Assembly: GCA_964399285.1 (NCBI GenBank)
Contig: CAYNQK010000002.1
Location: forward strand, 512-64,511
DNA length: 64,000 nucleotides
Direction of reading: 5' to 3'
Source: an uncultured Spirochaetales bacterium
Lineage (GTDB): Bacteria > Spirochaetota > Spirochaetia > Treponematales > JBGSOB01
Below are positions 34,072-62,278 of the stretch, in pieces. Position 1 is the first letter of the stretch. Every line of letters begins with the position of its first letter. The notes beneath the pieces are model-generated. The model was not told the origin of the DNA and did no database searches. It worked only from the letters and a program-made list of their open reading frames with translations. The position numbers and the translations under genes are program-made.

Positions 34072-35150
34072 TCCTTTTCTCCGGCCTCCGCGTACTCGCC
34101 GATCTGCCTCGCGCATACGCTCGCGGGAGGCTCTCCGGACAACCGCGCTTTTTCCCAAGCGACGCTCTTCTCGAGGGCGGTGGCGAGGTCCCATCGAGGC
34201 TTCCAGCCGATCCGCGACCTGATCTTCGAGCAATCGAGCTTGAGGTAATTCGCCTCGTGCGGGTGGGGTCCCTTATCGATCTCGTATTCCGCGTTTTCGC
34301 CCCAGAGGTCCTTGAGCCTCTGTACGATCCATCCGACGGGCCTCGCGTCCTCGTCGTTCGGTCCTACGTTCCACCCCTCGGCGCAGTCGTTGCTCCCGTA
34401 CAAGCGCTCCGCGAGCTCGATATACGCGGAGAGCGGCTCGAGGACGTGCTGCCAGGGGCGCGTCGACTCGGGATTCCTGATCCGGACCTTCTCGCCCTTT
34501 CCGAAGGCCCTGAGGCAATCGGGCACGAGGCGGTCCGGGGCCCAATCCCCTCCGCCGATCACGTTCCCCGCCCGGGCCGTCGCTATGGCGGCATGGTGGC
34601 TCTGCCCGTACTCCGCGACGTTGAAGAATGAATTGCGATAGGACGCGGCGACGATCTCGGCGCAGGCCTTGGACGCGGAATACGGATCGTATCCCCCGAA
34701 GGCCTCGTCCTCGCGGTACCCCCAGGGCCATTCCCTGTTTTCATAGACCTTATCCGTCGTGATCACGAGAATCGACCGCAGCTCGGGGCAGGAACGCGCG
34801 GCTTCGAGGACGTTCGCCGTGCCGATGACGTTCGTCTGGTACGTGCCGAGCGGATCCTTGTAGGATTCGCGCACTATGGGCTGCGCGGCGAGATGCATGA
34901 GGACGTCCGGCTTGAAGGCCTTCATCGAGGTCCTGAGCGCGTTCAAGTCGCGGATGTCGCCGATCGCATGTTCCATGCGGCGGTCCAGGCCGAGCAGGAC
35001 GAAAAGACTCGGATCCGTCGCGGGACCGAGGGAATATCCGCGGATCTCCGCCCCCATGGAGAGCAGCCATTCGCAGAGCCAGCTCCCCTTGAATCCGGTA
35101 TGCCCCGTCACGAAGACGCGCTTTCGGCGCCAGAACGCCGCGCCTTTCAT
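34068..35150 (-). CDS. rfbG: CDP-glucose 4,6-dehydratase
   Basis: Start at the ATG at 35150 (ATGA overlap). [27 protein letters not shown] and YSASKACAE are hallmarks of RfbG/DdhB. It is adjacent to rfbF. Confidence 0.9.
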
Positions 35151-35923
35151 TTCCAAGCCCTCCAGGGCGCCTTGCCCTCGGCCCAGAGCCGTTCGAGCTC
35201 CTGTTTGTCGCGGAGCGTGTCCATGGGCCGCCAGAATCCCTCGTGCCGGTAGGCGCCGAGTTGCCCGTCGCGCGCGAGGCCCTCGAGCGGGCCGCGCTCC
35301 CACACCGTCATGTCGCCGTCATTGATATAGTCGAAGACTCCGGGTTCGCAGACGAAGAATCCCGCATTGATCCAAGCGCCCTCGCCCGCGGGCTTCTCCT
35401 TAAAGGACACGACCGCGCTGTTCGCCGCCATGTCGATCGCCCCGAATCGTCCATGCGGCTGGACGGCGGTCAGGGTGGCGAGCCGCTTCGATTCCTCATG
35501 GAACCTGAGGAGGGCCGGGATATCGACGTCTCCGACCCCGTCCCCGTACGTGAGCATGAAAGGTCCGCCGTCGACGTATTCGCGGATCCTCGCGATCCTG
35601 CCGCCCGTCATCGTATCGAGCCCCGTGTCTACGAGGGTGACGCGCCACGGATCCGCGTGCTTGTGATGGACCTCCATCTCGTTATTGGCCATGTCGAAGG
35701 TTACGTCCGCCATGTGCAGGAAGTAGTTGGCGAAGTATTCCTTGATGACGTAGCCCTTATAACCGCAACAGATCACGAAGTCGTCGAATCCATGGCTCGA
35801 GTAAATCTTCATGATGTGCCAGAGGATCGGTTTACCGCCGATCTCCACCATCGGCTTGGGCCGGAGTTCAGTCTCTTCGGACAAGCGCGTACCGTATCCG
35901 CCGGCGAGAATAACAACTTTCAT
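35147..35923 (-). CDS. rfbF: Glucose-1-phosphate cytidylyltransferase
   Basis: 258-aa [67 protein letters not shown] matches RfbF/DdhA throughout. Confidence 0.92.
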
Positions 35924-37224
35924 AGAATCCTCCTATGCGGATCGGTTTCAAATATCTGTTCTACCGACTTTTTCAGAAGGGTGAAAAGGATCATAAAAGT
36001 CATGATTGCCAAATTGATCGGAACGTTGATGCTAAGGCCGCCGATTATTATTACGTAATCTTTGGGTATGAATAATAAACCATAACATATCGAGTAAATC
36101 ATAATCACTCTTTTTCCTAGATCACCTGTATCATAGATGAACATGAAAAACGGTATAAGGAAGCATATTAATTTGTAATCGTAGGACACATAAGGGAAAA
36201 GCACGAGGATGCTTACGAGGACTTGGGCAATTTCGAATGTTCGCAAGTCTTTCTTCACAAAAATAACGATGCATATGGCCAGAAAGAGAACAATCACTAT
36301 AGCCGCGTACGGTTTGGACATCGCAAGCTCTATCGCCCTTGAAGGCACGTAGCCCGGAGCCGATTTTCCTAGAATCCCGAGATAGGAAAGAACGATAAGC
36401 TTGATTACGCCGAACAATGTAGGGCTGTACTGGATTCCGTTGACATCGAACGACCTACCAAAAAATTTTCTGAACTCATGGAGCATGGAAAGAATATTAT
36501 TGATGACTCCTCCCTTGAAAGCGAGGAGTGGCAGGATGAAAAACGCGACGCATAATCCTAAGGCGAGTAATATTAATTTTACTTTTTTGTCTTTCACCAG
36601 GATAAGGATGAAAATGCCTGGGTAGATCTTCATTGATATTGCTATACTCAGGCAGATCACGCTAAGGATATGCCGATCCGTATAATAAAAATAGAAAAAA
36701 GCACCGACAAACAGGAATAAGTAAATCTCGATATTTCCCCTGTCGATGGAAAAAAGCAAGGGGTAAGCACAGCAGGCGATAACGAGAATGGAGAGGGCCT
36801 TTTCTTTATTGGCGAAGCATAACGACCCTATAAATAACGCGTAAACAACAAGGAAAATCCCTAAAAAAAGCGATAATGACAAATATTTACTCGGGATGAC
36901 GGAAAAAAACCAAAATAATAAATTCGGCAATGGCAGATAGTTGCTTTGAAAGAAATGGTTTGAGTTGTAAGGGGACCGGTCACCAGAAATCCCGTACATA
37001 TTTGAAAAGTCCCGAAAACAATTATCCGGCCGGAAAAGGAACGTGCTAAAAGGATACCCGAGGCCGAAGTACGAAGCCAACGCATAATGGAATGCCACTG
37101 CGCAAAAAAAACCGCAGAACACTATGATGGCGGTGACATTGAGCGCCTCTGCCCTGAGCATGGGTATTCCGAGAAGCCTTCGCACATCCGCTCTTTGGTT
37201 CCAGAGCGTGTTCTGACCTTCCAT
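35920..37224 (-). CDS. AT-rich polytopic membrane protein, putative repeat-unit polymerase (Wzy-like) or GT-C glycosyltransferase
   Basis: 434-aa ORF with about 10-12 TM segments and a Phe/Ile/Leu/Tyr-rich composition. It sits between rfbH and rfbF with TAA-ATG abutment upstream and an ATGA overlap downstream. I recognise no soluble domain. Confidence 0.5.
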
Positions 37225-38565
37225 TTAGCTTTTCCATCCCATCTTCAGGAACTCGCCGATCGCTGAAAGCGCGTATACAATGCGCGCCTCATCCAATCCC
37301 GGGAACGCCCCCAAAAAGAAGGTATCGTTCATAGCGATGTCCGTGTTCGGGAGGCCGCCGGGCGCCATGCGGTGCGCGATGCCCTCGTACGCCGGCTGCC
37401 TCAGGATGTTCCCCGCGAAAAGGTTCCTCGTCTCCACGCGATGCGCGTTCAGGTAGTCCGTGAGCTCGGTCCTCGTGAACCCGGCATCGGGCTTGACGGT
37501 GACGGGATACGCGAACCAGGAGGGGTCGGATTTCGCCGTCGCTCGGGGCAGTATGAAATACCGCTCGTACTGCCCGAAACCTTCGGTCCATCGCTTGAAG
37601 TTCTCCTTGCGCCGCGCGATGAATTCCGGAAGCTTCTTCATCTGCTCCACTCCGATCGCGGCCTGGATGTCCGTGACCTTGAGGTTGTACCCGATGTGGG
37701 AGTACACGTACTTGTGGTCGTAGCCCGCGGGGAGCGTCCCGTACCGTCCGGTGAAGCGCTTGCCGCAGGTATTGCTCTCCCCGCCCGAGCAGTAGCAATC
37801 GCGTCCCCAGTCGCGGATTGACCGGGCCGCTCGCGCGAGAATCTCGTCGTTCGTGAAGACGCAGCCTCCCTCGCCCATGGTGATGTGGTGAGCGGGATAG
37901 AAGGAACAGGTGGCGATGTGCCCGAAAGTGCCGACCTTCCTGCCCGCGTACGTCGATCCCAGGGCGTCGCAGCAATCTTCCACGAGCCAGAGCCCCTTCT
38001 CCTCGACGACCTCCATGACCGCGTCGAGGTCGTAGGGATTCCCGAGGGTATGCGCGAGGAAGACGGCCTTCGTCTTCGGCCCGATCGCCTTCCTGAGCTG
38101 TTCGACGTTGACGTTGTACGTGCCGATATCGATATCGACGAAAACCGGGACCATGCCGTTCTGGATGACGGGATTGACCGTGGTCGGGAAGCCGGCCGCC
38201 ACGGAAATCACCTCATCGCCCGGCTTCAAGGCCTTTTCGCCGAGGAGCGGGGAGGTCAAGGCGCTGAAAGCGACGAGATTCGCGGAGGACCCCGAGTTCA
38301 CGAGGAAGGCGAACTCGCTCTCGACGAAGTCCGCGAACGCGCCCTCGAATTCCTCGGAGAACCTGCCCGAGGTGAGCCAGAAATCCAGGCACGCGTCCAC
38401 GCCGGCCTGAAGCTCCTTCTCGTCGAAGACCCTTCCCGCGTAACGGACCATGTCCTTTTCCGCGTCGAAGGCCTTCACCGGGAATTTGACCCGATAATAT
38501 TCCGCCACGAGCGAGGCGATTTCTTCCCTGAGCCGTTTCTCATCCTTCACGTTCGTCACTCCCAT
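37225..38565 (-). CDS. rfbH: CDP-6-deoxy-L-threo-D-glycero-4-hexulose-3-dehydrase (E1, PMP-dependent)
   Basis: 446-aa DegT/DnrJ-fold protein. The E1-specific FYPAHHITMGEGG has His in place of the PLP lysine. The Cys-rich DWGRDCYCSGGESNTCGKRF segment is the Fe-S site. Confidence 0.9.
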   Translation of the reverse strand: MGVTNVKDEKRLREEIASLVAEYYRVKFPVKAFDAEKDMVRYAGRVFDEKELQAGVDACLDFWLTSGRFSEEFEGAFADFVESEFAFLVNSGSSANLVAFSALTSPLLGEKALKPGDEVISVAAGFPTTVNPVIQNGMVPVFVDIDIGTYNVNVEQLRKAIGPKTKAVFLAHTLGNPYDLDAVMEVVEEKGLWLVEDCCDALGSTYAGRKVGTFGHIATCSFYPAHHITMGEGGCVFTNDEILARAARSIRDWGRDCYCSGGESNTCGKRFTGRYGTLPAGYDHKYVYSHIGYNLKVTDIQAAIGVEQMKKLPEFIARRKENFKRWTEGFGQYERYFILPRATAKSDPSWFAYPVTVKPDAGFTRTELTDYLNAHRVETRNLFAGNILRQPAYEGIAHRMAPGGLPNTDIAMNDTFFLGAFPGLDEARIVYALSAIGEFLKMGWKS

Positions 38566-39281
38566 TCGTCGATTCTCACGTTTTCCGGCTTCACGCCGCA
38601 GGCGACCAGTCCGCCCTTGAACGCCTTGATCATGGCGGGGGGGCCGGAGAGAAAATAAAGCGGATCTTCCAAGTCGGCGGTCTCGTCCCGTATCGAACGG
38701 ATATCCAGCATGCCGCCGCGCATCCCGGCGCTTCTCTCGGGATCCTCCACGAAGAGGCTATATGTGAAATCCTTGCAAGAAGAGCCGCATCCGCGGATTT
38801 CGTCCAAGAAGAGCAGCTGATCTTCCTTCCTGGCTCCGTAATACAGCCTCACGGGAGCGGCGGCGCTTCCGAGCCCGGCGATCTCCTCAATGAACGGAAC
38901 GTAGGGCGAAACCCCCGTCCCGCCCGCTACGAGAACCACGCCCCGTCCGGCGTTCAAATCGATATGGAATTCCCCGTAAGGCAGTTTCAGCCATACGGTT
39001 TTCCCGACATCGAGCTCGGCCTCCATCCTGCGCGTATACGCGCCCTTCACGCTGTATACGATCGCGATCTCGTCGGCGCCGTAGCGCGACGCGATAGAGA
39101 AAACGCGCGATTCGGGCCAGAAGCCCCCGGCCGGATCGTAGTCCTCGAGGGTCATATGCAGGAATTGGCCGGACTTGAACCGCGGCACGCGCCCCTCGGG
39201 CTTGAGGCCGATTTCATACACTCCCTCGCCGTGGGGATCGATGCGGGACACCGCCGCTCGAAGCTTAACGGGATTGGCCAT
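38556..39281 (-). CDS. FNR-like FAD/NAD(P)H oxidoreductase (E3-like reductase lacking the ferredoxin domain)
   Basis: Start at the ATG at 39281. FAD motif RVFSIAS and NAD motif VLVAGGTGVSP. No N-terminal CxxxxCxxC 2Fe-2S domain. It lies directly upstream of rfbH with a 10-nt overlap. Confidence 0.7.
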   Translation of the reverse strand: MANPVKLRAAVSRIDPHGEGVYEIGLKPEGRVPRFKSGQFLHMTLEDYDPAGGFWPESRVFSIASRYGADEIAIVYSVKGAYTRRMEAELDVGKTVWLKLPYGEFHIDLNAGRGVVLVAGGTGVSPYVPFIEEIAGLGSAAAPVRLYYGARKEDQLLFLDEIRGCGSSCKDFTYSLFVEDPERSAGMRGGMLDIRSIRDETADLEDPLYFLSGPPAMIKAFKGGLVACGVKPENVRIDEWE

Positions 39282-40995
39282 CGCGCCATCCTTTCCCACC
39301 GAGCGCGCCCATCGCCTCATCGAACACGATCGCGCGGTCGAGGCTGGTTCCTTGATACGGAATACTCTTCATCAATTCGCCCTTGAGCAGGATCTCGCCC
39401 CCGGTCTCGAGCGCGATTCCCGCACCGCAGAGAGTCGCCATGGTAGGGGCCACGTCGACCAAGGATACGGCCTTCGCGCCAATGATCGCTGAACCCGGAG
39501 CTATGCCTTCTCCGAGGATGAACAAAGGAACATACCTCACGATATTCTGCCCGATGCGAATTTGAGAGCTCCGGTAAACCGGCTTCTCTATGAACGCCGG
39601 ATGATCCCCGTAAATGCAGACGATCGCGTCAGGAGCGATCTTCCTCAGCTCTTCGACGAAAACCCCGAGGCAGCCGTCGACGTAGGCCAGTGACCCGAAA
39701 TACGAGTCGACGAACGCGTCTCCCGTCCGTATCCCTCCCGCCGCCCGGACCTCGGGAGGGAGGAGATCGAAGGGATTGTGCGATGACATCGTGATGATAT
39801 AAGCGAGGAAGGGCCCCGTCGAAGCCCGCATCTTCTCGAGGGCGAAGGAGAAGGTGTCCTTATCCTCGGAACCCCACTTATACGTGCCCCCGCCGATATC
39901 CTTCTTGTCGTAGAACGCGTCGAATCCCATTCGCCTGTATACGCGATTCCTCGAGTAGAAAGTGCCGCTATTGCCGTGAAAAGCCATCGTCGAATAGCCC
40001 GCGCGCTTCAGCGCCGCGGCCAGGGAATTCGGATAATCGTGGTTCGGCGGCATCGGCCCGTCGGGAACGAATGAATTTATGACGCAGATTTCGCTATTGA
40101 GGGTTCCCGCTCCGGTATTGACGACCATCACCGGCGCGTAGAAGCCCTCATCGGCCGCGGAATCGAGGAACGGCGTCACGGGCTTGCCGCCTACCCGCGA
40201 CCCTCTCAGGCCCGAATCGAGCGACTCGACCTGGATGAACACCAAGCTCCTGGGCTTCGCGGCCGATTCCGTCTCATACCGGTCCAGGCCGGCATAATAA
40301 TCCTTTTGGCCGGGATTGAAGAGGACTCCGTGGAAGAACTGTATGAAAAGATTGGCGGCCGCGCCGTATTTGAGTACCGAGGAGTAATAATAGGGATCCC
40401 CGTACCTCAGCAAATGGCATATCGACACTCGCTTGGTCGCGTTATACGCCTCGGCGCTCAATAAGCCCGCGCATGACGCGATGACTACCGCCCGTCGAGC
40501 TACGATCGCCGGCTTCCATCGCAATCCATGGAACCACTCCTTGATTCGGCCCGACAGGAGGAACGCCGCGACGGACAAAGGAACCTCGAGGAGATGGGAG
40601 AATATCCTCCGAGTCGCCTCTCCGGTCCACTTATACATCCCCGACGCTATCATTCCTTCGAGGAAAAACGTTTTCACGATGTCGACGGTTATGAAATCCG
40701 CGAAGTGGGCGAAATAGAGGGCCGAAGCCACGCTCCAAACGGACCTCGCTCCTTGAAGAGCGAGAAGGATCCATGCGGGGCATTTTTTCATGAGCAGCAC
40801 GCGCGCGCACAACACCGCGCCGAGGGCGGTGTACGCGACCTTATACAGGACGTTCCTCGGATTCAAGAAGCCCGTGAACCAAAAGCCCGTCATGGAGATG
40901 TTAAAGATTATGAGGAGCAGATAGACTCCGGCGATCGTTAAGCCGAAGACCGGCGGCCCGTGCGGCCCGGCCTTTTCCGCGCCCTTCGCTTCCAT
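39265..40995 (-). CDS. LTA-synthase/sulfatase-family membrane transferase (phosphoglycerol or phosphoethanolamine transferase-like)
   Basis: Five or so N-terminal TMs precede an alkaline-phosphatase-superfamily domain (LVFIQVESLDSGL, MAFHGNSGTFYSRNRVY, ITMSSHNPF, IYGDH). I prefer the ATG at 40995, 1 nt past the fcl stop. The ATG at 41061 is an alternative. Confidence 0.75.
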   Translation of the reverse strand: MEAKGAEKAGPHGPPVFGLTIAGVYLLLIIFNISMTGFWFTGFLNPRNVLYKVAYTALGAVLCARVLLMKKCPAWILLALQGARSVWSVASALYFAHFADFITVDIVKTFFLEGMIASGMYKWTGEATRRIFSHLLEVPLSVAAFLLSGRIKEWFHGLRWKPAIVARRAVVIASCAGLLSAEAYNATKRVSICHLLRYGDPYYYSSVLKYGAAANLFIQFFHGVLFNPGQKDYYAGLDRYETESAAKPRSLVFIQVESLDSGLRGSRVGGKPVTPFLDSAADEGFYAPVMVVNTGAGTLNSEICVINSFVPDGPMPPNHDYPNSLAAALKRAGYSTMAFHGNSGTFYSRNRVYRRMGFDAFYDKKDIGGGTYKWGSEDKDTFSFALEKMRASTGPFLAYIITMSSHNPFDLLPPEVRAAGGIRTGDAFVDSYFGSLAYVDGCLGVFVEELRKIAPDAIVCIYGDHPAFIEKPVYRSSQIRIGQNIVRYVPLFILGEGIAPGSAIIGAKAVSLVDVAPTMATLCGAGIALETGGEILLKGELMKSIPYQGTSLDRAIVFDEAMGALGGKGWRDGQSR

Positions 40996-40996
40996 C

Positions 40997-41950
40997 TTAT
41001 GCCCGCCCGCCGCTCCCGAACCTCTCGAGGAAATCCGCATACGCGATCGGAATCCCCTCATCGAGCCCGACGAGCGGCTTCCATCCGAGAGCGGCGAGCC
41101 TCGATGAGTCCATGAGCTTCCGGGGCGTACCGTTCGGCTTGCTCGCGTCCCAGACGATTCTTCCCGTGAAGCCGATCACCTTGGCGACTTTCGCCGCCAG
41201 CTCCGCTATGGTGAGTTCGCTCTGCGACCCCACGTTGATGAAATCGCCCGTATCCGCGTAGGAAGCCTTCTCCATGAGAAAAACGATCGCGCGGGCGAGG
41301 TCGTCGGAAAAGAGGAATTCCCGGTAGGGGGTTCCGTCCCCCCAGAGAGTCGCGTCGGTCCCCGCGGCCTTGGCCTCGTGGATTTTGCGGATCATCGCCG
41401 GCAGGACGTGGCTCCCCGTCGGGTGATAGTTGTCGCCGGGGCCGTACATGTTGGTGGGCATGGCGCTTAAGAATTCGGCCCCGTACTGCTCGTGGTAATG
41501 CTTGCAGAGCCTGAGCGCCGCGATCTTCGCCACCGCGTACGCCTCGTTCGTCGGCTCGAGCGGTCCCGTGAGGAGGTACTCCTCCTTGAGCGGTTGGGGC
41601 GCCATCTTCGGATATATGCACGAGGAACCGAGGTTGAGGAGCTTCTTCACGCCGTACCGGTACGCGGAATTGATGACGTTGGATGCTATCATGATGTTGT
41701 CGTAGAGGAACTCGGCGGGGAAGGAGGAATTCGCCGCGATGCCGCCCACCTTGGCCGCGGCGAGAATGACGTACTCGGGGCGCTCGCTCTCGAAGAAGGC
41801 CTCGGCGTCGGCCTGGCGGCGGAGGTCGAGCTCCTTGATGCCCCTCGTCACGATGTTCGCGTAGCCCGCGGCGCGCAACGCCCGGAAGATGGCCGAGCCG
41901 ACGAGGCCGTCGTGCCCGGCGAGGTATATCTTCGAATTCCTTTCTATCAC
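40997..41950 (-). CDS. fcl: GDP-L-fucose synthase (GDP-4-keto-6-deoxymannose 3,5-epimerase/4-reductase)
   Basis: 317-aa ORF with a GTG start and GAGGGG 4 nt upstream. IYLAGHDGLVGSAI, LGSSCIYP and YAVAKIA are typical Fcl/WcaG motifs. It is adjacent to gmd. Confidence 0.92.
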   Translation of the reverse strand: MIERNSKIYLAGHDGLVGSAIFRALRAAGYANIVTRGIKELDLRRQADAEAFFESERPEYVILAAAKVGGIAANSSFPAEFLYDNIMIASNVINSAYRYGVKKLLNLGSSCIYPKMAPQPLKEEYLLTGPLEPTNEAYAVAKIAALRLCKHYHEQYGAEFLSAMPTNMYGPGDNYHPTGSHVLPAMIRKIHEAKAAGTDATLWGDGTPYREFLFSDDLARAIVFLMEKASYADTGDFINVGSQSELTIAELAAKVAKVIGFTGRIVWDASKPNGTPRKLMDSSRLAALGWKPLVGLDEGIPIAYADFLERFGSGGRA

Positions 41951-41957
41951 GTTCCCC

Positions 41958-43043
41958 TCACTCGAACCTGTTGCGCGTCTCGAAGCCGCCGTCCCGGAGG
42001 TGGACCTCGCGCTCCGCGTCCTTCAGGTCCGCTTCGACCATCATCTTGACGAGGCCCGCGAGGTCGACGCGGGGCTTCCATCCCAGCTCGCGCATCGCCT
42101 TGGAGGGATCTCCGATGAGGAGATCCACCTCGGTGGGCCGGAAGTAGCGCGGATCGACCTCCACGACGGTTTTTCCGGTCTTCTTGTCCAGGCCCTTCTC
42201 GTCGACGCCCGCGCCCTTCCACTCGAGCTCGATGCCCGCTTCCCGGAAGGCCATCCCGGTGAAATCGCGCACGGTCGTCGTGACGCCGGTGGCCATCACG
42301 TAGTCGCCGGGCTTTTCCTGCTGGAGCATGAGCCACATGAGCTCGACGTAATCGCCCGCGAAGCCCCAGTCCCGCTTGGCGCCGAGGTTGCCGATGAAGA
42401 GCTTTTCCTGGAGACCGTTCCTGATGCGGGCCGCGGCCCTCGTTATCTTCCTCGTCACGAAGGTCTCGCCGCGGCGAGGGCTCTCGTGGTTGAAGAGGAT
42501 GCCGTTGTTCGCGTGGATCCCGTAGGCCTCGCGGTAATTGACCGTGATCCAGTAAGCGTAGAGCTTGGCGCAGGCGTAGGGGCTCCTCGGATAGAAGGGC
42601 GTCGTCTCCTTCTGGGGCACCTCCTGGACGAGGCCGAAGAGCTCCGACGTGGAGGCTTGGTAGAACCGCGCTTTCTTCTCCAGGCCCAGGATCCTGATGG
42701 CTTCGAGGATGCGGAGCGTTCCGATCCCGTCCACGTCCGCGGTGTACTCCGGCTCCTCGAAGGAGACCTGGACGTGGCTCTGCGCCCCGAGGTTGTAGAT
42801 CTCGTCGGGCTGGATCTTCTTGATCAGCCGGATAATGGCGCTGGATTCGGAGAGATCGCCGTAGTGGAGGAAGAATCTGGCTCCTGAATCGTGGGGATCC
42901 TCGTAAATATGGTCTACCCGGTCGGTGTTGAAGGAAGACGCGCGGCGCTTGATGCCATGGACTTCATACCCTTTGGCGAGGAGGAATTCCGCGAGGTAGG
43001 AACCATCCTGTCCGGTGATGCCTGAAATAAGCGCTTTCTTCAT
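41958..43043 (-). CDS. gmd: GDP-mannose 4,6-dehydratase
   Basis: Start at the ATG at 43043 ([22 protein letters not shown]). Near-complete match to the conserved Gmd sequence ([35 protein letters not shown]). Confidence 0.95.
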
Positions 43044-43233: not shown

Positions 43234-43279
43234 ATGTTCAGTTATTGAACATTATAGCACGCGGTTTATTGGGTATCAA
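43234..43279 (-). promoter_or_regulatory. Promoter of the 25-gene glycan operon (TTGATA-17-TATAAT) with an overlapping TGTTCA-N5-TGAACA operator
   Basis: The minus strand reads cTCTATTGATAcccaataaaccgcgtgcTATAATGTTCAATAACTGAACATctg. The -35 box is at 43274-43279, the -10 box at 43251-43256 and the palindrome at 43234-43252. This lies about 200 nt upstream of the gmd ATG, in an AT-rich gap. Confidence 0.7.
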
Positions 43280-56312: not shown

Positions 56313-57464
56313 ATGGAATCAAAAAAGAAGATCCTCTTCCTCTACCTCGACTCAGGCGGCGGCCACAAGGCGCCCGCCATGGCGGTGGCCGACTGGATCA
56401 ACAAGCACGAAGGGCATAGGGCCGAGGCCATCGTGGCCAACGGGGTCTCCCCGAAGAATTTCATAACCGCCGCCCTCCTCGAGCAGGGCTATCGCGTCAT
56501 CACGACCCGCTTCCCCGCGATCTGGAAGACCTTCTACGATATGTCCCTCCCGAGGGTTTCCCTCTTCCTCAATTCGATCTCCATCCTCCTCAACTCGCTC
56601 ACGCACCTCGCCATCCTCCTCAGGCGGGAGCGCCCCGACGTGGTGGTCAACTGCCACTTCCTCCTCAACTCGCCCCTCAAGGTCCTCCACCGGTCGCCCG
56701 GTTGCAGCTTCAAGCTGCTCACGCTGTGCACGGACCCCTTCACCATCCATCCCTTCTGGTTCTACAAGCAGTACGGCACCGTGCTCCTCTTCTCGCGCAT
56801 CGCGCGCGAGGAGATCATGGCCTCCTACCGGATCCCCCCCGAGCGCGTGCCCATCTTCCCCTGGGTCCTCCAGGAGCGCTACTCGGCCGCGCTCCCGAAG
56901 GAGCGGGTGATCGAGCTCAAGCGGGAGTTCGGGCTCGATCCAGAGGGCCGCGTGGTCCTCATCGCGGGCGGGGGCGAGGGCCTCCCGCACACGGAGAACT
57001 ACTTCAGCTCCCTCCTCGACTCATGGGCGGAATTCGATCTCGTGGTGGGCTGCGGGAAGAACGAGGCCATCAAGCGGCGATGCGAGGAGATCCTCCGCCG
57101 GAAATATCCCCGGCGGACGGTGAAGATCCTGGGCTTCACCAAGCTCATGTACGAATACATCAACTGCGCGGATCTCGTCATCTCGAAGGCGGGGACCTCG
57201 ACCGTCATGGAGACCCTGAGCCAGGGAAAGCCCCTCCTCATCGCCCAGTACCTCTACGGACAGGAATTCGGGAACGCGGCCTTCGTGGTCAGGAAAGGGC
57301 TCGGAGTGTACGCGCCCAAGCCGGCGGACATGCGCTCGACCGTCGAACGCTTCCTCTCGGATCCGAAGGCGTACCGCCGCGTGAAGGAGCGGATCGCCAA
57401 GGCGGACATCAGGAACGGAACGCCGGAGGTCGCCTCGTACATCCTTAATAAGGCGGGAGCCTAG
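56313..57464 (+). CDS. GT28-family glycosyltransferase (monogalactosyl/diglucosyl-diacylglycerol synthase-like)
   Basis: I place the true start at the ATG at 56313 (MESKKKILFLYLDSGGGHKAPAMAV...). The MGDG_synth N-terminal motif and the C-terminal ISKAGTSTVMETLSQGKPLL GT-B motif are present. The upstream 430 codons of the 815-aa ORF are an out-of-frame overlap with ygiQ. Confidence 0.8.
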   Translation: MESKKKILFLYLDSGGGHKAPAMAVADWINKHEGHRAEAIVANGVSPKNFITAALLEQGYRVITTRFPAIWKTFYDMSLPRVSLFLNSISILLNSLTHLAILLRRERPDVVVNCHFLLNSPLKVLHRSPGCSFKLLTLCTDPFTIHPFWFYKQYGTVLLFSRIAREEIMASYRIPPERVPIFPWVLQERYSAALPKERVIELKREFGLDPEGRVVLIAGGGEGLPHTENYFSSLLDSWAEFDLVVGCGKNEAIKRRCEEILRRKYPRRTVKILGFTKLMYEYINCADLVISKAGTSTVMETLSQGKPLLIAQYLYGQEFGNAAFVVRKGLGVYAPKPADMRSTVERFLSDPKAYRRVKERIAKADIRNGTPEVASYILNKAGA

Positions 57465-58550
57465 CGCGGGCCGGGGCCCGCGCCGTCCCTTCCCCCGGCG
57501 CCGGTTCTTGAGGCAATGGAGCGCTATGAATCCCGAGAGGGCGACCGTCCACGACGCCGCCACGAGCGCCAGGAACCATCCGCGCGGTAGATACGACGAG
57601 AGCACGTTGACGGCGCCGAGGGCCATGGTCGACGCGTAGATCATGCCCAGGATCGCCCTCGTCCCCAGCCCCAGCTTGAGCAGCTTGTGGTGCAGGTGCC
57701 AATCGTCCGGTGACATGATCGACTTCCCGGCGCGGAGCCGCCTCCAGATGGCGGCGAAGGTGTCGAAGATCGGAATGACGATGACGGTGATGCCCAGATA
57801 CGGCTGGATGTCGAGGTAGGCCCCGTTCCTCGAGATGAGGGGGAGGAGGGCGACCATGAAGCCCAGATACGTCGACCCCGAGTCGCCCATGAAGATCTTG
57901 GCCGGAGGGAAGTTATAGAAGAGGAAACCGGCGAGCGATCCCACGAGCGCGAAGGAGAAGAGGGCCGGCATGGCCTCCCCGCGCGCGACGTAGAGGATGC
58001 CGTAGGTGCAGGCGGCGATGATGGAGATCCCTCCGCAGAGCCCGTCCATCCCGTCGATGAAGTTTATCGCGTTGATGATGCCCACGATCCAGAGCACGGT
58101 GAGCGGCCAGGAGATCCAGGCGGGGATGGACAGCGCCCCGAGGCCGGGAAGCCAGATGGAATGGAAGCGGAAATCGAAGAAGCAGAGCGCCACCGACACG
58201 AGGACCTGCACGGCGAAGCGGAGCTTCGCGGATATGTTCCTGAAGTCGTCCACGAGCGAAAGGACGTTCACGATGAGCATCCCGGCGAGGAGCGGCAGGT
58301 AGTCGATCCCGGAGCCGCCCGACGGATTGAAAACGGGGATGAGCGCGAGAAGGGCGATGGGCAGGAAGGACGTCCAGAAGATGCCGATCCCGCCGAGCCT
58401 GGGCACGTTGCCCCGGTGTATCTTCCTCGGATCCAGGGGATCGAACCACTTGCGCCTATGGGCGATATAGATGACGAGGGGGGTGAAGGCCAGATTCAGG
58501 ATGCACGAGATGAGGGCGGTGAGGAGCGGGTACATGCTTTCGATGTTCAC
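57021..58550 (-). CDS. Polyprenyl-phosphate HexNAc-1-phosphate transferase (WecA/MraY family, GT4 of the PNPT superfamily) with an anomalous 157-aa C-terminal extension
   Basis: GTG start at 58550 (GTGA overlap with the manC stop). About 350 aa of typical PNPT sequence (VPRLGGIGIF, NAINFIDGMDGL, IFMGDSGSTYLGF). The ORF has no stop until 57021. The last ~157 codons are antisense to the GT28 gene and look non-native. Confidence 0.75.
   Translation of the reverse strand: MNIESMYPLLTALISCILNLAFTPLVIYIAHRRKWFDPLDPRKIHRGNVPRLGGIGIFWTSFLPIALLALIPVFNPSGGSGIDYLPLLAGMLIVNVLSLVDDFRNISAKLRFAVQVLVSVALCFFDFRFHSIWLPGLGALSIPAWISWPLTVLWIVGIINAINFIDGMDGLCGGISIIAACTYGILYVARGEAMPALFSFALVGSLAGFLFYNFPPAKIFMGDSGSTYLGFMVALLPLISRNGAYLDIQPYLGITVIVIPIFDTFAAIWRRLRAGKSIMSPDDWHLHHKLLKLGLGTRAILGMIYASTMALGAVNVLSSYLPRGWFLALVAASWTVALSGFIALHCLKNRRRGKGRRGPRPALGSRLIKDVRGDLRRSVPDVRLGDPLLHAAVRLRIREEAFDGRAHVRRLGRVHSEPFPDHEGRVPEFLSVEVLGDEEGLSLAQGLHDGRGPRLRDDEIRAVDVFVHELGEAQDLHRPPGIFPAEDLLASPLDGLVLPAAHHEIEFRP
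57464..57483. terminator. Perfect GC hairpin at the junction of the convergent GT28 and wecA-like genes
   Basis: GCGCGGGCC-GG-GGCCCGCGC (9-bp arms) starts at the last base of the GT28 TAG stop. There is no flanking U tract on either strand. The wecA-like ORF reads straight through it. Confidence 0.4.
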
Positions 58551-59611
58551 GATGGCATCCTACCATCGCCCTCGGGGCGATGCAACGGTTCGAGTTCGGA
58601 GAGGGCGCGGACCGCGTCCTTCACGCGCTGCCCCGAGCCCCGCCTCGCGACGAGGAGGGCGTCCTCGGTGTCGACCACCATCATATCATCCGCGTCGATG
58701 AGCACCACGGCCTTCTTCCCGTTCCGCTCGATCACGAGGCAGCCCGAGGAATCGAGGAAGAGGGGCTCCTTCTCGGCGTAGGCGGCGTTCCCCGCCGCTC
58801 CGCCGGCCGACAGCGCGTAGAGGCTTTCATAGCTCCCGACGTCGCTCCATCCCATGTCGCAGGCGACGACGGCCATCCTGTCGGATTTTTCCATGACAGC
58901 GTAATCGAGGGAGATGGAGGGCGCGATGGCCATGTCCTCAGCCCGCGGCTCTATCCGCGCCCCTCCGCGCGCGGACGCGTAAGCGGCGCGGCAGGCCTTG
59001 AGCGTCTCGGGCGAATGCTTTCCGAGCTCCTCGAGGAAAACGCCTGCCTTGAAACAGAAGATCCCGGAATTCCAGAGGTGCTTCCCTCCGGCGCAGTATT
59101 CCGCTGCCACCGCGGCCGAGGGTTTTTCGGTGAAACGGACGACTCGATCCCCGTCGCGCTCGATGTAGCCGTATCCGGTCTCGGGATATCCGGCCTTCAC
59201 CCCCAGGGCGACGATAAAGCCCTCGCGGGCCAGGGCGGCCGCCCGGTCCACGGCGTTCCGATACGCCGCCTCGTCGCGGATCAGGTGGTCCGCGGGACTG
59301 ACGAGCACGATCTCCTCTGGATCGAGCGCGAGGACGGCGAGGGCGGCCGCGGGCGCGGTGTTCCTGGGCAGCGGCTCGAGGACGAGGGGCCGGACCTCGA
59401 TCCCGGCTTCCGCGAACGCGGGGAGCGCGAGGCCCGCGTGCTCCTTTCCGATGGCGAGCGCGAAGGTTCCGCAGACGCCGGCGTTCCGCGCGATCGTCGC
59501 GGCGAAGAGGGTTCCGCCCCGGAACAGGGGCACGAAGGGCTTAGGCAGGGCGGGCAGGGAAATGGGCCAGAGCCGCGTGCCCGAACCGCCGGACAGGATG
59601 AGGCAGGTCAT
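58547..59611 (-). CDS. manC: Mannose-1-phosphate guanylyltransferase
   Basis: 354-aa ORF. CLILSGGSGTRLWPIS...PKPF is the nucleotidyltransferase N terminus. FCFKAGVFLEEL and WSDVGSYESL are typical of ManC/CpsB (short form without the PMI domain). Confidence 0.85.
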   Translation of the reverse strand: MTCLILSGGSGTRLWPISLPALPKPFVPLFRGGTLFAATIARNAGVCGTFALAIGKEHAGLALPAFAEAGIEVRPLVLEPLPRNTAPAAALAVLALDPEEIVLVSPADHLIRDEAAYRNAVDRAAALAREGFIVALGVKAGYPETGYGYIERDGDRVVRFTEKPSAAVAAEYCAGGKHLWNSGIFCFKAGVFLEELGKHSPETLKACRAAYASARGGARIEPRAEDMAIAPSISLDYAVMEKSDRMAVVACDMGWSDVGSYESLYALSAGGAAGNAAYAEKEPLFLDSSGCLVIERNGKKAVVLIDADDMMVVDTEDALLVARRGSGQRVKDAVRALSELEPLHRPEGDGRMPS

Positions 59612-59617
59612 GCCGGA

Positions 59618-60613
59618 TCACTCCGTCCTGAAGACATAGCCGTCGCCTCCCTTTCCCTCGCCGAGGAATTCGAAGCCCACCGTCCGGGATATCCCCTCCT
59701 CGAGGCTCGCGGGGGGGCGGAAGCCCGACGCCATGGCCTTGTCCGCCGAGAAGCTCGTGGTAGCGCAGAATTTCTTGATCCTGATGGAACTCACGGGGAA
59801 GCGCTTCCCCGTCACCGCGGAGAGCGCGTCGAAGCAGAGGCCGCCCAGGTATCCGAGGAAGTACGGGAACCGCGGACCCACGCGGTCACCCCGGCCGAGG
59901 AGCGCGTTGACCTTCCTCACGAGGCGGTTCATGTCGAAGTCGGGCTTGTCCACGTAATTGAAGAGATGCTCGCCCGGCCCGAAGCCCATGCAGTGCTCCA
60001 GGAAGGCGGCCACGTTCTCCACGTAGGCCATGCTCTTCGTGTTCGTCCCGTTCCCGACCATGACGAAGTGGCGCGAGGCGATGAAGCTGAGCAGGTTGTA
60101 GACGTTCCCGCGATTCCGCTCGCCGAAGACCACGGTCGGCCGGACGATGGCGAGGGAGCGGTCCGCGCCGCCCGAGAGCCATGCCCGGTACGCGCCCTCG
60201 GCGGCGAGCTTGGTCTTCCCGTACTCGTTGAAGGGGGCGCAGGCGCCGTCCTCGGCGGTTCCGGCGGGCGCGAAGCCGTAGACCGCCACCGAGCTCGTGA
60301 AGACGATCTTCCCGATGCCGAGGCGTTCCGCGGCCCGGCAGACGTTCACCGCTCCGCCCACGTTGACGTCGGCGTAGAGGCTGAGCGGGCGGACGTCGTC
60401 GCGGTGCTGGGCCGCGAGGTTCACGACGAGGCCGCAGCCCCGGAGGCCCGCTTCGAGCGAGGCGGGGTCGCGCACGTCGGCCGCCTCCCATCGATCGGGG
60501 AAGAAATGGCTCTTGGCGATGTCGAGGATCTTGAAGTCCCTGCCGGCCCGCCGGAGCCGCTCCGCGAGCCGCGTGCCGATGAAACCGGAACCGCCGATGA
60601 TCGCGATGCGCAC
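59618..60613 (-). CDS. NAD-dependent nucleotide-sugar epimerase/dehydratase (SDR)
   Basis: Rossmann motif IAIIGGSGFIGTRL and catalytic YGKTK. I prefer the GTG at 60613, which has GGGAG 6 nt upstream. The 54 upstream codons of the ORF (to 60775) are Arg/Pro/Gly-rich and probably non-coding. Confidence 0.75.
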   Translation of the reverse strand: MRIAIIGGSGFIGTRLAERLRRAGRDFKILDIAKSHFFPDRWEAADVRDPASLEAGLRGCGLVVNLAAQHRDDVRPLSLYADVNVGGAVNVCRAAERLGIGKIVFTSSVAVYGFAPAGTAEDGACAPFNEYGKTKLAAEGAYRAWLSGGADRSLAIVRPTVVFGERNRGNVYNLLSFIASRHFVMVGNGTNTKSMAYVENVAAFLEHCMGFGPGEHLFNYVDKPDFDMNRLVRKVNALLGRGDRVGPRFPYFLGYLGGLCFDALSAVTGKRFPVSSIRIKKFCATTSFSADKAMASGFRPPASLEEGISRTVGFEFLGEGKGGDGYVFRTE

Positions 60614-60781: not shown

Positions 60782-61330
60782 TCATCGTGAAAAAACCTCC
60801 GCCAGGTAGGCGGTATCCGGCTCGGACCCTTGAGGGACCGGCCGCGGCTCGTTCTCCGAGACGAGGTACAGGTAGCGGCCCTTCAGGGGCCGGGTCCGCG
60901 CCGATCGGATGTCGGCCGACCTCACGAAAAGCAGTTCGTATTTCTGGCAGGCGTACTCCACGATGAACTCGAGGTCGCTCGGCCCGGCGAGGAGGACGCC
61001 CGAGTAGCCCTCGCGTTTCTTGGCGGCGATCAGCGCCTCGACGAGGTCCTTGTAGACGGAGACGTTGGTGATCGTCCGCTTGAAGTACCGGAAGGTCCGC
61101 GCCGCGATCTCCTTCACGCCCTCCGGCGTGACGAGGTATTGGATGTTCCGGGGATTGATCCGCCGAATGGTTACCCAGCCCTTTTCGATGAAGCGCTTGA
61201 GGAGCATGTTGGTCATGCCCAGTGAGAGGCTCGCCGCGCGGGCGAGCTCACGCTGTTTGACGTCCTCGTCGCGCTTTTGGGAGTGATAAATGGTTTCTAG
61301 GATCGATAACTCGGAATCCTGGGTGTCCAT
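60782..61330 (-). CDS. Winged-helix (MarR-like) transcriptional regulator with a C-terminal domain of unknown function
   Basis: The wHTH segment reads KQRELARAASLSLGMTNMLLKRFIEKGWVTIRRINPRNIQYLVTPEGV. I take the ATG at 61330 as the start, because the ORF-track start at 61339 is a TTG. It is the first gene of the regulator-epimerase-manC-wecA operon. Confidence 0.75.
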   Translation of the reverse strand: MDTQDSELSILETIYHSQKRDEDVKQRELARAASLSLGMTNMLLKRFIEKGWVTIRRINPRNIQYLVTPEGVKEIAARTFRYFKRTITNVSVYKDLVEALIAAKKREGYSGVLLAGPSDLEFIVEYACQKYELLFVRSADIRSARTRPLKGRYLYLVSENEPRPVPQGSEPDTAYLAEVFSR

Positions 61331-61378
61331 AGTGTTCAACCATTGAACACTATATCACGAACGTGCTTCCTCCACAAG
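61329..61378 (-). promoter_or_regulatory. Promoter of the wHTH regulator operon (TTGTGG-17-TATAGT) with an overlapping 11-bp-arm palindrome containing TGTTCA-N5-TGAACA
   Basis: The minus strand reads ccTTGTGGaggaagcacgttcgtgaTATAGTGTTCAATGGTTGAACACTATGgac. The palindrome ATAGTGTTCAA-TGG-TTGAACACTAT spans 61329-61353. It covers the -10 box and runs into the ATG. Confidence 0.65.
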
Positions 61379-62278
61379 GAGATCCTGCGCGTACGAACAG
61401 AGGATGAGGGGGCCGCGAGAACGGGAGCGCGCCTCTTTAAGCAGAATCGCGTCGATCCCGGCCTCGAGGTACTCCGGGAAGGTGAGAAGAAAGAAGACGA
61501 GGAGTCCCGAGGCGCCGCCGGGGAGCTGGAGGCGTTCGCCGAGGAGGAGGGCGAGGCTGTCCGCCTCCCCCGGGGAATCCTCCATTCCCGGAATCCTGGC
61601 CTCCAAAATGAGGGCCTTGTCCGACTTCACGGCCCGGTCCAACCGCCCCGCGCATTCAGCGTAGAGGAGATTCCGGTACTCCCGCTCGGAGAGCAGGCCC
61701 GCTCCGCGGGAGGGAAGGAGGGCGTCGAGCAGGCGGAGCGCCCGGTCATGCCCGGTCTCGCGGAGCTCGCAGGCGGCGACGTCCGAAAGGAAGGGGTCCA
61801 GGTCCTCGACGCCGCCCCCGCCCTCGCCCGCGGAAGGAACGGTGCCGGGACGCGGAGGCTCTTCCGCGAGGAGGTTGCGGTACCAACGCCCGATGACCCG
61901 TATCATCTCGAGGTCCTTGAAGTGGAAAAAGCGCGCCTCGAGCTCGGGAAAGGCGGAGAGCGATTCCTTGAACGCCTTGAAGACGCCCCGCCGGGACGAG
62001 AGCGCCTCCCCCATCGCCGTCCGCGCGGCTTCATTGCGCTGGGCCGAGGCGAAGCGCTCCATGAGCTTGAATCCGTCCGCGCTCGACCAAGCGGGGAGGG
62101 AGGCCCAGCGCCCCGCGTCCGCGGTCTCGGGGTCCTCGTCGTCGGCGCCCTCGGGGAAATCGGGATCGAGGCCGGGACTCGCGATCCGCCCCGTCTCCAC
62201 GTTTATGAGGGCGTCGTCGTCCTGGTCCTCCATCGCGAAGGCGATCTCGGATGCGATCCGCTCGTCCAGGGAAAACAT
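61355..62278 (-). CDS. Hypothetical protein with an N-terminal UPF0158-like region
   Basis: 307-aa ORF. The acidic N terminus (AFAMEDQDDDALINVETGRI...) and the FKAFKESL...FPELEARFFHFK segment resemble the UPF0158 family. The C-terminal half is unassigned. Confidence 0.5.
   Translation of the reverse strand: MFSLDERIASEIAFAMEDQDDDALINVETGRIASPGLDPDFPEGADDEDPETADAGRWASLPAWSSADGFKLMERFASAQRNEAARTAMGEALSSRRGVFKAFKESLSAFPELEARFFHFKDLEMIRVIGRWYRNLLAEEPPRPGTVPSAGEGGGGVEDLDPFLSDVAACELRETGHDRALRLLDALLPSRGAGLLSEREYRNLLYAECAGRLDRAVKSDKALILEARIPGMEDSPGEADSLALLLGERLQLPGGASGLLVFFLLTFPEYLEAGIDAILLKEARSRSRGPLILCSYAQDLLVEEARS

What the first reader, a model, noticed from the sequence alone, without database searches (positions are those of the whole stretch)
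61329..61378. Autoregulatory-looking operator: 25-nt perfect palindrome spanning the -10 box and start codon of the wHTH regulator
- The 24-nt gap between the stop of the upstream hypothetical gene (61355) and the regulator ATG (61330) is almost entirely one perfect palindrome, ATAGTGTTCAA-TGG-TTGAACACTAT, with 11-bp arms.
- Reading upstream on the minus strand gives TTGTGG-17 nt-TATAGT, so the -35 box lies inside the preceding gene.
- The transcript would carry only about 10 nt of leader and no SD sequence.
- No U tract follows the palindrome, so it is unlikely to act simply as a terminator.
- Its core is the same as the operator at the glycan operon promoter (43234-43252).
- This suggests the regulator represses itself and the big operon through the same site.
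Basis: partly seen in the sequence, partly recalled or inferred. Interest (0 to 1): 0.7.

Follow-up and report, generated by a model that had tools for sequence, protein, structure and literature searches.

The report
Self-operator of a glycan-operon regulator
The palindrome is real and is very probably the binding site through which a MarR-like regulator of an uncultured spirochaete controls its own promoter and a 29-kb sugar-nucleotide/glycan operon, an ordinary kind of switch whose site is unusually well conserved across phyla.

Summary
Window 61329-61353 is a perfect 25-nt palindrome with 11-bp arms. It fills the 24-nt gap between the stop of the upstream gene and the regulator ATG at 61330. 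On the minus strand it follows TTGTGG-17-TGaTATAGT directly.

The conserved core is T-GTTCA-N5-TGAAC-A (61333-61349). It occurs exactly twice in the 64 kb. The second copy (43235-43251) sits in the same register behind TTGATA-17-TGcTATAAT, upstream of a GDP-mannose dehydratase/epimerase/aminotransferase/glycosyltransferase operon.

The same -35/extended -10/core block precedes the regulator homologue in 77 of 79 assessable genome loci (40-99% protein identity), and nine of its ten core bases never vary. A metagenome scan for '-10 plus core' returned 124 sites. About 55% lie directly upstream of a relative, including true TIGR04176 (MarR_EPS) proteins. Others precede glycosyltransferase or sugar-nucleotide genes.

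Best reading: this is the regulator's own operator, overlapping -10/+1, so it most likely represses. Binding, the direction of control, the transcription start, the short SD-less leader and the ligand are all inferred. No usable RNA data exist.

Kind: a textbook autoregulated winged-helix repressor. What is new is the operator consensus and the GDP-mannose-glycan regulon of an uncharacterised family.

The parts
61329..61353 (.). Perfect 25-nt palindrome (11-bp arms, 3-nt spacer).
61333..61349 (.). Conserved operator core T-GTTCA-N5-TGAAC-A (site 1, at the regulator's own promoter).
   Evidence: Exact match. Nine of the ten core bases are invariant in all 79 aligned sites and the fifth is A in 63 and G in 16; the flanking T and A are each kept in 78 of 79.
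61349..61357 (-). Extended -10, TGaTATAGT. Its TGA (61357-61355) is also the stop codon of the upstream gene. Its last T is the outermost base of the operator.
   Evidence: TGnTAnnnT sits directly before, or 1-3 nt before, the core across the family.
61372..61377 (-). -35-like TTGTGG, 17 nt upstream of the -10, inside the 3' end of the upstream gene.
   Evidence: The TTG aligns with the family's conserved cTTGa column. It is kept in L001-L003 although the overlapping protein diverges to 36% identity.
60782..61330 (-). Regulator gene (182 aa). It has an N-terminal MarR-like winged helix, a long helix, and a small C-terminal alpha/beta domain with a conserved GxSDL[DE]F[IL][VI]E..C motif.
61355..62278 (-). 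Upstream gene (307 aa, weak UPF0158-like match). It carries the -35 and ends in the extended -10. It is syntenic in L001-L003.
43235..43251 (.). Operator core, site 2 (TGTTCAGTTATTGAACA), at the glycan-operon promoter.
43251..43279 (-). Near-consensus promoter TTGATA-17-TGcTATAAT. Its -10 abuts site 2 in the same register as at site 1.
   Evidence: 11 of 12 matches, TG present.
14318..43043 (-). Glycan / sugar-nucleotide operon downstream of site 2. It encodes GDP-mannose 4,6-dehydratase, epimerases, a sulfatase-like protein, a DegT aminotransferase, GT87, a nucleotidyltransferase, a TPP enzyme and more. Only the first ten genes, down to 29607, were annotated; the rest of the extent, down to 14318, is taken from the run of same-strand ORFs. 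The likely gmd start is ATG 43043, which implies a leader of about 200 nt.
   Evidence: The start codon is inferred from the sequence ([15 protein letters not shown]).
57021..60613 (-). Genes directly downstream of the regulator on the same strand: an NAD-dependent epimerase, mannose-1-phosphate guanylyltransferase (ManC) and a GT4 initiating transferase. They may be co-transcribed from the site-1 promoter.
   Evidence: The regulator-ManC adjacency recurs in at least 10 related loci.

Best explanation
The palindrome is the regulator's own operator.

A dimer of the adjacent winged-helix regulator (a MarR_EPS relative) binds the 17-19-bp core TGTTCA-N5-TGAACA. The left edge of the core shares a base with the -10 hexamer and the core covers the predicted transcription start. 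An occupied operator should therefore exclude RNA polymerase or block promoter opening or escape, which means autorepression.

The same core sits in the same register behind the strong promoter of the 29-kb GDP-mannose-derived glycan operon. One protein would then set the level of both units. These are (i) regulator, epimerase, ManC and GT4, and (ii) gmd and the rest.

An unidentified signal, perhaps sensed by the C-terminal alpha/beta domain, would release the protein.

Shown: the sequence anatomy, the two sites and the conservation.
Inferred: binding by this protein, repression, a start near 61342, a leader of about 12 nt without SD, co-transcription of the downstream genes, and the ligand.
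For: - Exactly two core sites lie in 64 kb, each abutting a -10 with a -35 17 nt upstream.
- Of 79 assessable homologous loci (40-99% protein identity), 77 carry the core upstream of the gene, 73 of them within about 325 nt. Nine of the ten core bases are invariant; the fifth is A in 63 and G in 16 of 79. The conserved cTTGa -35 and TGnTAnnnT -10 sit in near-fixed register, the -10 ending 0-3 nt before the core.
- Other core-like hits in 706 kb of those loci are few, all carry a mismatch, and lack the promoter context.
- In L001-L003 the overlapping upstream protein drops to 51% and 36% identity. The 27-nt TGA-to-ATG block changes only in the operator spacer.
- A blind metagenome scan for TGNTATNNTGTTCANNNNNTGAACA gave 124 sites. 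Of these, 68 have a family-HMM-positive ORF just downstream. They include true TIGR04176 proteins at 113-145 bits against a cutoff of 88.
- Sites that are not in front of a regulator precede GT2, GT8, UXS-like, epimerase and nucleotidyl- or cytidylyl-transferase genes (the proteins tested were picked by hand). Several loci hold two sites.
- Regulator-ManC and regulator-gmd-fcl adjacency recur.
- The protein has a MarR/MepR-like winged helix.
- The promoters are near consensus, the kind that needs turning down rather than up.
Against: - Nothing here is experimental: there is no binding, expression or 5'-end data. Public runs that hold the window are DNA or too thin to use.
- The site-1 -35 is weak (3 of 6) and the tool's promoter scan did not call it.
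- Two homologous loci (L060, L063) lack the site, and four have it 700-1800 nt away.
- Some 'other' metagenome hits precede IclR or Rex genes and may be chance or belong to other proteins.
- Some MarR-family proteins activate transcription.
Confidence: 0.8

Rival explanations
1. The palindrome acts as an RNA hairpin. In transcripts reading through from the pyrE / oxidoreductase / UPF0158-like genes, the 11-12-bp stem would sequester the regulator's AUG, or act as a terminator, processing or stability element. DNA binding would be secondary or absent.
For: The stem appears in the predicted minimum-free-energy fold of the 81-nt region. The AU of the start codon lies in the 3' arm. The upstream genes are on the same strand, tightly packed, with no terminator between them.
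Against: - The fold of the whole region is not exceptional (z = -1.65; 11 of 200 shuffles fold as well).
- No U-tract follows the stem.
- Across 79 sites the half-sites are invariant rather than co-varying, and the spacer is free. That is the signature of sequence-specific protein recognition, not of a stem.
- The motif keeps a near-fixed register (within 3 nt) to the -35 and -10 even where no gene lies upstream.
- A start about 7 nt after the -10 would leave the 5' arm out of the regulator's own transcript.
- Site 2 has arms of only 7-8 bp.
- The long arms are clade-specific.
Confidence: 0.07
2. The site is a real protein-binding site, but either the regulator activates or anti-represses from it, or a different conserved factor binds it.
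For: Some MarR/SlyA-type proteins activate transcription (established knowledge). A few metagenome sites precede unrelated regulator genes such as IclR and Rex.
Against: - A site spanning roughly -7 to +10 is incompatible with the known activator positions at sigma-70 promoters.
- Both promoters carry an extended -10, and site 2 matches 11 of 12, so they need no activator.
- The motif tracks this one protein family across phyla. That is most simply explained by cognate recognition, given the shared SLG(M/K)T.. recognition-helix segment.
Confidence: 0.1
3. It is a chance AT-rich palindrome in a short intergenic gap, with no function.
For: Perfect 11-bp-arm inverted repeats are only about four times commoner in the window than in shuffles (2 against 0.5).
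Against: There is a second exact core at another promoter (0 of 100 shuffles had any exact match). The core is conserved in 77 of 79 assessable loci.
Confidence: 0.01

Closest known systems
TIGR04176 / NCBIfam 'MarR family EPS-associated transcriptional regulator' (MarR_EPS, about 105 aa)
   Same: The winged helix is homologous (49.4 bits, E = 4e-13). The gene neighbourhood is also glycan/EPS. As found here, true TIGR04176 genes carry the same promoter-plus-TGTTCA-N5-TGAACA block directly upstream, and some are followed by gmd, fcl or manC.
   Different: The window protein scores below the curated cutoff (49.4 against 88). It has an extra C-terminal alpha/beta domain of about 80 aa that the roughly 105-aa family lacks. 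I found no paper describing an operator or a tested function for TIGR04176.
Classical autoregulated MarR-family repressors (E. coli MarR at marO, S. aureus MepR)
   Same: Both have a winged-helix fold; the top Foldseek hits are HcaR, MepR and MarR. Both use a palindromic operator overlapping the -10/+1 of their own promoter, and one regulator controls its own gene plus a target operon (established knowledge of the family).
   Different: The Pfam MarR and MarR_2 scores are below gathering; only HTH_24 passes. Only the roughly 85-residue winged helix superposes well (rmsd 2-3 A); the rest does not. The operator sequence is unrelated. The ligand and dimer interface are unknown.
Rex-type repressors (winged helix plus C-terminal nucleotide-binding alpha/beta domain, palindromic box at promoters)
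   Same: The resemblance is architectural only: an N-terminal winged helix, then a small alpha/beta domain that starts with a Gly-containing beta-loop-alpha, and a palindromic box at promoters (recalled from memory, not tested as homology).
   Different: There was no Pfam or NCBIfam hit to Rex domains. The C-terminal domain has no PDB fold match with E < 0.1. The Rex box as I recall it (TTGTGAA..TTCACAA) is a different sequence. This protein is not a member.

Membership tests
MarR family (Pfam PF01047 / PF12802; winged HTH PF13412) | Sequence match at or above the Pfam gathering score | tested here: inconclusive
   HTH_24 scores 23.4 against a cutoff of 21.9 (passes). MarR scores 22.0 against 24.6 and MarR_2 scores 22.7 against 27 (both fail).
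MarR family (Pfam PF01047 / PF12802; winged HTH PF13412) | Winged-helix fold like that of solved MarR proteins | tested here: met
   The AF2 model has pLDDT 85. The top PDB hits are HcaR, MepR, MarR, AdcR and ZitR (prob 1.0, E about 4e-4 to 5e-3), with rmsd of about 2 A over about 86 residues for MepR. The match covers the winged helix only.
TIGR04176 MarR_EPS (equivalog) | Score at or above the curated cutoff of 88 bits | tested here: not met
   The score is 49.4 bits. It is the only NCBIfam hit, so the protein is a relative, not a member.
TIGR04176 MarR_EPS (equivalog) | Location in an exopolysaccharide / glycan biosynthesis neighbourhood | tested here: met
   The regulator is followed by an epimerase, ManC and GT4, and a 29-kb sugar-nucleotide operon lies 18 kb away. 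The same theme appears in relatives.
Autoregulatory repressor operator | Dyad-symmetric site overlapping the regulator's own core promoter | tested here: met
   The core at 61333-61349 shares its last base with the -10 (61349-61354) and covers the predicted +1.
Autoregulatory repressor operator | Site conserved with the regulator gene in other genomes | tested here: met
   The site is present in 77 of 79 assessable loci, and 68 of 124 pattern-selected metagenome sites are followed by a family member.
Autoregulatory repressor operator | The regulator binds the site, and occupancy lowers transcription | not testable with these tools
   This needs EMSA or footprinting and reporter or knock-out data.
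Intrinsic (Rho-independent) terminator | G+C-rich stem followed by a U-tract | tested here: not met
   The stem is A+T-rich and is followed by AUGGACACCC. The scan does not call it.
Leaderless / very-short-leader mRNA | Mapped 5' end at, or within a few nt of, the start codon | not testable with these tools
   No RNA runs cover the window. The prediction is a start near 61342, a 12-nt leader and no SD. One 151-nt metatranscriptome read in a homologous locus ends in the operator spacer (L159:1522). That is an anecdote only.

The most novel reading that the evidence does not exclude
This would be an ancient regulator-operator pair, kept almost letter for letter from Proteobacteria to Spirochaetota, that gates GDP-mannose-derived surface-glycan synthesis.

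In several lineages the operator has fused with the start of the regulator's own message. The transcript would begin inside the operator spacer, making it leaderless or nearly so. In some genes the right half-site itself supplies the start codon (nTG-AAC read as Met-Asn).

In this clade the arms have grown to 11 bp. Read-through transcripts from the upstream operon would then fold over the AUG and stay untranslated, and only transcripts from the regulator's own repressible promoter would make protein. One 25-nt element would work at both the DNA and the RNA level.
Probability: 0.15. Interest if true: 0.6.

Novelty: new member of a known kind. Interest (0 to 1): 0.4.

Why it matters
MarR_EPS-type regulators are catalogued next to exopolysaccharide loci in many phyla. 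I found no described binding site or tested function for them in the held literature.

A near-invariant 17-bp operator fused to the -10 gives a simple, searchable handle. It can be used to predict which surface-glycan operons these regulators control in uncultured spirochaetes and marine bacteria, and it makes their ligand (perhaps a GDP-sugar) testable in vitro.

For this window, it links two separate gene sets into one regulon: ManC with the initiating transferase, and the gmd-led 29-kb operon. As a mechanism it is textbook.

Tried and rejected
- RNA evidence for the start site. Runs holding the window are DNA metagenomes or thin fragments. There are no RNA runs for the Gracilinema locus L035. 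The 'RNA-Seq' sludge runs for L159 behave like DNA assemblies, with 5-11-kb contigs. The true metatranscriptomes give only single reads.
- Rfam. There is no RNA family at either site or in the leaders; the window holds only a tRNA.
- Terminator reading. Rejected: no U-tract.
- Terminator-like hairpin at the regulator's 3' end (60799-60813). Its T-run is not kept in L001/L002, so it probably reflects coding sequence only.
- Extended 25-nt palindrome as the functional unit. Beyond the 7-bp half-site, complementarity is only weakly enriched (rings 2-3, and marginally 5-6), and long arms occur in a few clades.
- C-terminal domain identity. There is no sequence hit in the PDB and no fold hit with E < 0.1. 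The Rex idea is not supported.
- Literature. Four searches found nothing on this family's operator or on a spirochaete MarR-EPS regulator. The two papers opened were false hits in reference lists.
- The out-of-frame ATG in the operator spacer (61343-61341). It is not conserved in L002 and was discarded.

Full report
**1. The observation**

On the minus strand the region reads TTGTGG-aggaagcacgttcg-TGa-TATAGT-GTTCA-ATGGT-TGAAC-ACT-ATG-GAC.

- ATAGTGTTCAA / TGG / TTGAACACTAT is a perfect palindrome with 11-bp arms at 61329-61353.
- The upstream 307-aa ORF stops with TGA at 61357-61355. The regulator ORF starts with ATG at 61330. The gap is 24 nt.
- TTGTGG (61377-61372) lies 17 nt upstream of TATAGT (61354-61349). 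The stop codon TGA also provides the TG of an extended -10.
- No T-run follows the palindrome, and the terminator scan calls nothing there.
- No purine-rich SD precedes the ATG.
- The window is 64% G+C. Perfect inverted repeats with arms of at least 11 and loops of at most 8 occur twice, against a mean of 0.5 in shuffles. The palindrome alone is only mildly unusual.

**2. The second site**

TGTTCAN5TGAACA has exactly two matches in the window, at 61333-61349 and 43235-43251, even with two mismatches allowed. No exact match occurred in 100 shuffles.

Site 2 sits immediately after TTGATA-17-TGcTATAAT on the minus strand, which matches 11 of 12 positions and has the TG. The register is the same as at site 1: the last T of the -10 is the outermost base of the core.

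Aligned on the minus strand, the two promoters share CGTGnTATArTGTTCAATnnnTGAACA.

**3. The genes**

- *Regulator.* The protein is 182 aa. It matches HTH_24 above the Pfam cutoff, matches MarR and MarR_2 just below it, and matches TIGR04176 MarR_EPS at 49 bits against a cutoff of 88.
- *Structure.* AlphaFold (pLDDT 85) gives a winged helix (residues 1-67), a long helix (69-106) and a small alpha/beta domain (111-182). Foldseek matches only the winged helix, to HcaR, MepR and MarR. The C-terminal domain modelled alone (pLDDT 86) has no PDB match with E < 0.1.
- *Family.* It is large and almost entirely spirochaetal (Treponema and relatives, mostly MAGs). The window itself comes from an uncultured Spirochaetales bacterium found in anaerobic-digester metagenomes (L001 is 99% identical).
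- *Downstream of the regulator, same strand.* An epimerase, mannose-1-phosphate guanylyltransferase (ManC) and a GT4 initiating transferase.
- *Downstream of site 2.* After a leader of about 200 nt (my reading of the gmd start at ATG 43043, [15 protein letters not shown]), the first ten genes were annotated. They include GDP-mannose 4,6-dehydratase, epimerases, a sulfatase-like protein, a DegT aminotransferase, GT87, a nucleotidyltransferase, a TPP enzyme and an HMGL-like protein. The run of same-strand ORFs continues over about 29 kb in all. uvrC lies upstream of site 2.

**4. Comparative test in genomes**

A scan of one genome per species returned 80 loci encoding a relative (40-99% identity).

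- In 77 of the 79 with upstream sequence, GTTCA-N5-TGAAC (0 or 1 mismatch) lies upstream on the coding strand. In 73 it lies within about 325 nt of the aligned start.
- Aligning the 77 sites with the two window sites gives cTTGa, 17 nt, TGnTAnnnT, then GTTCA-N5-TGAAC-A (in a minority of loci the -10 ends 1-3 nt before GTTCA).
- G, T, T, C and TGAAC are invariant in all 79. The fifth base is A in 63 and G in 16. The flanking T and A are each present in 78 of 79.
- The few other core-like hits in the 706 kb all carry a mismatch and lack the promoter context.
- L060 (Breznakiella homolactica) and L063 lack the site. L028, L055, L059 and L078 have it 700-1800 nt upstream.
- In most loci the site is 130-320 nt from the aligned start of the gene; part of that distance may be N-terminal extension, so the leaders are probably long. 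In the window clade (L001-L003) and in L032, L034, L037, L039, L051, L057 and L081-L083 it lies within about 25 nt of the start codon.

**5. Selection on the DNA**

In L001-L003 the upstream UPF0158-like gene is syntenic. Its protein identity to the window copy falls to 94%, 51% and 36%. The 27 nt from TGA to ATG change only in the operator spacer, and the TTG of the -35 is retained.

The half-sites never co-vary; they simply do not change. The spacer is free. This pattern fits base-specific recognition by a dimeric protein, not an RNA stem.

Outside the 7-bp half-site, complementarity is only weakly enriched. Ring 2 gives 46 of 77 against 40 expected, ring 3 gives 32 against 22, and rings 5-6 are marginal. 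Arms of at least 10 bp occur in nine loci from a few clades.

The conserved unit is therefore 17-19 bp. The 25-nt perfect palindrome is a clade-specific extension in which the right arm mirrors the -10 and supplies the AT of the ATG.

**6. A wider family**

- In 68 sites an ORF matching the family HMM lies just downstream on the same strand. Many of the remaining sites sit on contigs that end too soon to judge.
- About 35 of these ORFs are short (roughly 105-125 aa) proteins. They come from contigs whose G+C ranges from 0.21 to 0.65, mostly below 0.5. The four that were scanned are true TIGR04176 members, scoring 113-145 bits. The four 176-205-aa forms that were scanned score 54-72 bits, below the cutoff like the window protein.
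- Ten downstream proteins that are not regulators were tested. I chose them by eye, so they are not an unbiased sample. They were two GT2, one GT8, one UXS-like dehydratase, one epimerase, one sugar-phosphate nucleotidyltransferase, one cytidylyltransferase, one methyltransferase, one aspartate-semialdehyde dehydrogenase and one unknown.
- Eight loci hold two sites that fit this family. In L120 one precedes a GT2 gene and one precedes the regulator. L100, L179 and L138 have tandem sites 83-89 nt apart. A ninth locus, L145, has two overlapping cores in front of an IclR-type gene and probably does not belong here.
- Regulator-ManC adjacency recurs in at least 10 spirochaete loci. TIGR04176 followed by gmd, fcl or manC occurs in L112, L144, L196 and L131.
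- The window's two-site layout, and its link to GDP-mannose-derived glycans, is therefore the family's norm.

**7. Mechanism**

A core that runs from the last base of the -10 to about +10 cannot be occupied together with RNA polymerase, and both promoters have an extended -10. I therefore infer repression.

Taking +1 at about 7 nt after the -10 gives 61342 at site 1. That leaves a 12-nt leader, TGGTTGAACACT, without SD. At site 2 it gives 43244 and a leader of about 200 nt.

The family alignment supports ATG 61330 as the start (MDTQDSELSILE; P0002 and L003 begin at the same point). The in-frame TTG at 61339, inside the right arm, remains possible.

In L112, L123 and L144 the first in-frame start codon after the -10, and the only one before the conserved region, is the nTG of the right half-site. 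Very short or absent leaders are therefore a recurring feature of this family.

None of this could be checked with RNA. The only hint is a single 151-nt metatranscriptome read in the homologous locus L159. It ends at 1522, in the operator spacer, 2 nt from the predicted start.

**8. Rivals**

- *RNA hairpin.* The stem is in the predicted fold, but the region's stability is not exceptional (z = -1.65). The stem lacks a U-tract. Its 5' arm would be missing from the regulator's own transcript. The invariance without covariation argues against a structural role. It could still occlude the AUG in read-through transcripts from the upstream genes in this clade; I rate that as a secondary possibility.
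- *Activation, or binding by another factor.* The position argues against the first, and the motif's strict association with this one protein family argues against the second.
- *Chance.* Conservation excludes it.

**9. Comparison and novelty**

The element works like the classical MarR or MepR autoregulatory operators.

The protein is a relative of TIGR04176, not a member: its score is below the cutoff and it has an extra C-terminal domain.

Four literature searches found no description of this operator or of a tested function for the family. That is not proof that none exists.

I file it as a new member of a known kind. The useful by-products are an operator consensus and a predicted GDP-mannose-glycan regulon for an uncharacterised, cross-phylum regulator family.

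Noticed in passing
window 52088-52109: This is the only other perfect inverted repeat in the window with arms of at least 11 bp: CCTACGCGCTCGAGCGCGTAGG, G+C-rich, with no spacer. It lies within the span of the ORF listed at 51919-52539 (+); that ORF was not annotated.
   Followed up: no
window 60789-60813 (minus strand): A terminator-like hairpin, CCGCCTACCTGGCGG followed by AGGTTTTTTC, lies inside the last 10 codons of the regulator gene. The T-run is broken in L001 and the hairpin is absent in L002, so it may be coding sequence only. It leaves open whether the regulator is co-transcribed with the epimerase, ManC and GT4 genes.
   Followed up: partly
window 43044-43244 (minus strand): A leader of about 200 nt lies between site 2 and the probable gmd start (ATG 43043, not the longest-ORF start at 43079). 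It contains a G+C-rich hairpin, CCGCCCCAACGCGGCGG (43083-43099). There is no Rfam hit. In most homologous loci the site also lies 130-320 nt from the aligned start of the regulator gene.
   Followed up: no
L112, L123, L144 (metagenome contigs, G+C about 0.65): In these true TIGR04176 genes the first in-frame start codon after the -10, and the only one before the conserved region, is the TTG formed by the last spacer base plus the TG of the right half-site (TTG-AAC-AAC-GTA, read as MNNV...). The start codon therefore lies inside the operator, and the mRNA would be essentially leaderless.
   Followed up: partly
L100 517-630; L179 4836-4957; L138 4257-4372: Two complete operator cores lie in tandem, 83-89 nt apart, upstream of a single TIGR04176 gene; in L100 and L179 each core has its own -35/-10.
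   Followed up: no
L060 (Breznakiella homolactica RmG30, complete genome) and L063: These two regulator homologues have no recognisable TGTTCA-N5-TGAACA site within 6 kb upstream. They are the only two exceptions among 79 assessable loci.
   Followed up: no
L081-L083 1080-4469: In the locus of the abundant digester relative P0045, the regulator lies in a cluster that opens with a NusG-family paralogue, followed by CapD-like (Polysacc_synt_2) and DegT genes. This suggests a dedicated antitermination factor for the glycan operon.
   Followed up: no
window 60755-60781: Immediately after the regulator's stop codon, the minus strand reads cgGGCGTTGGCGTTGGCGTTcgcg, three tandem GGCGTT units. L001 has a shorter, different version. 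The following epimerase ORF, as listed, probably over-extends by about 55 codons at its 5' end; the Pfam match starts at residue 57.
   Followed up: no
L093 and L092, L145: The '-10 plus core' pattern also precedes a Rex-like gene (L093) and two IclR-type genes (L092, L145; L145 has two overlapping cores). These may be chance matches or sites of other regulators with similar half-sites.
   Followed up: no
window 1508-1579 (minus strand): A tRNA gene, the only Rfam match in the window.
   Followed up: no
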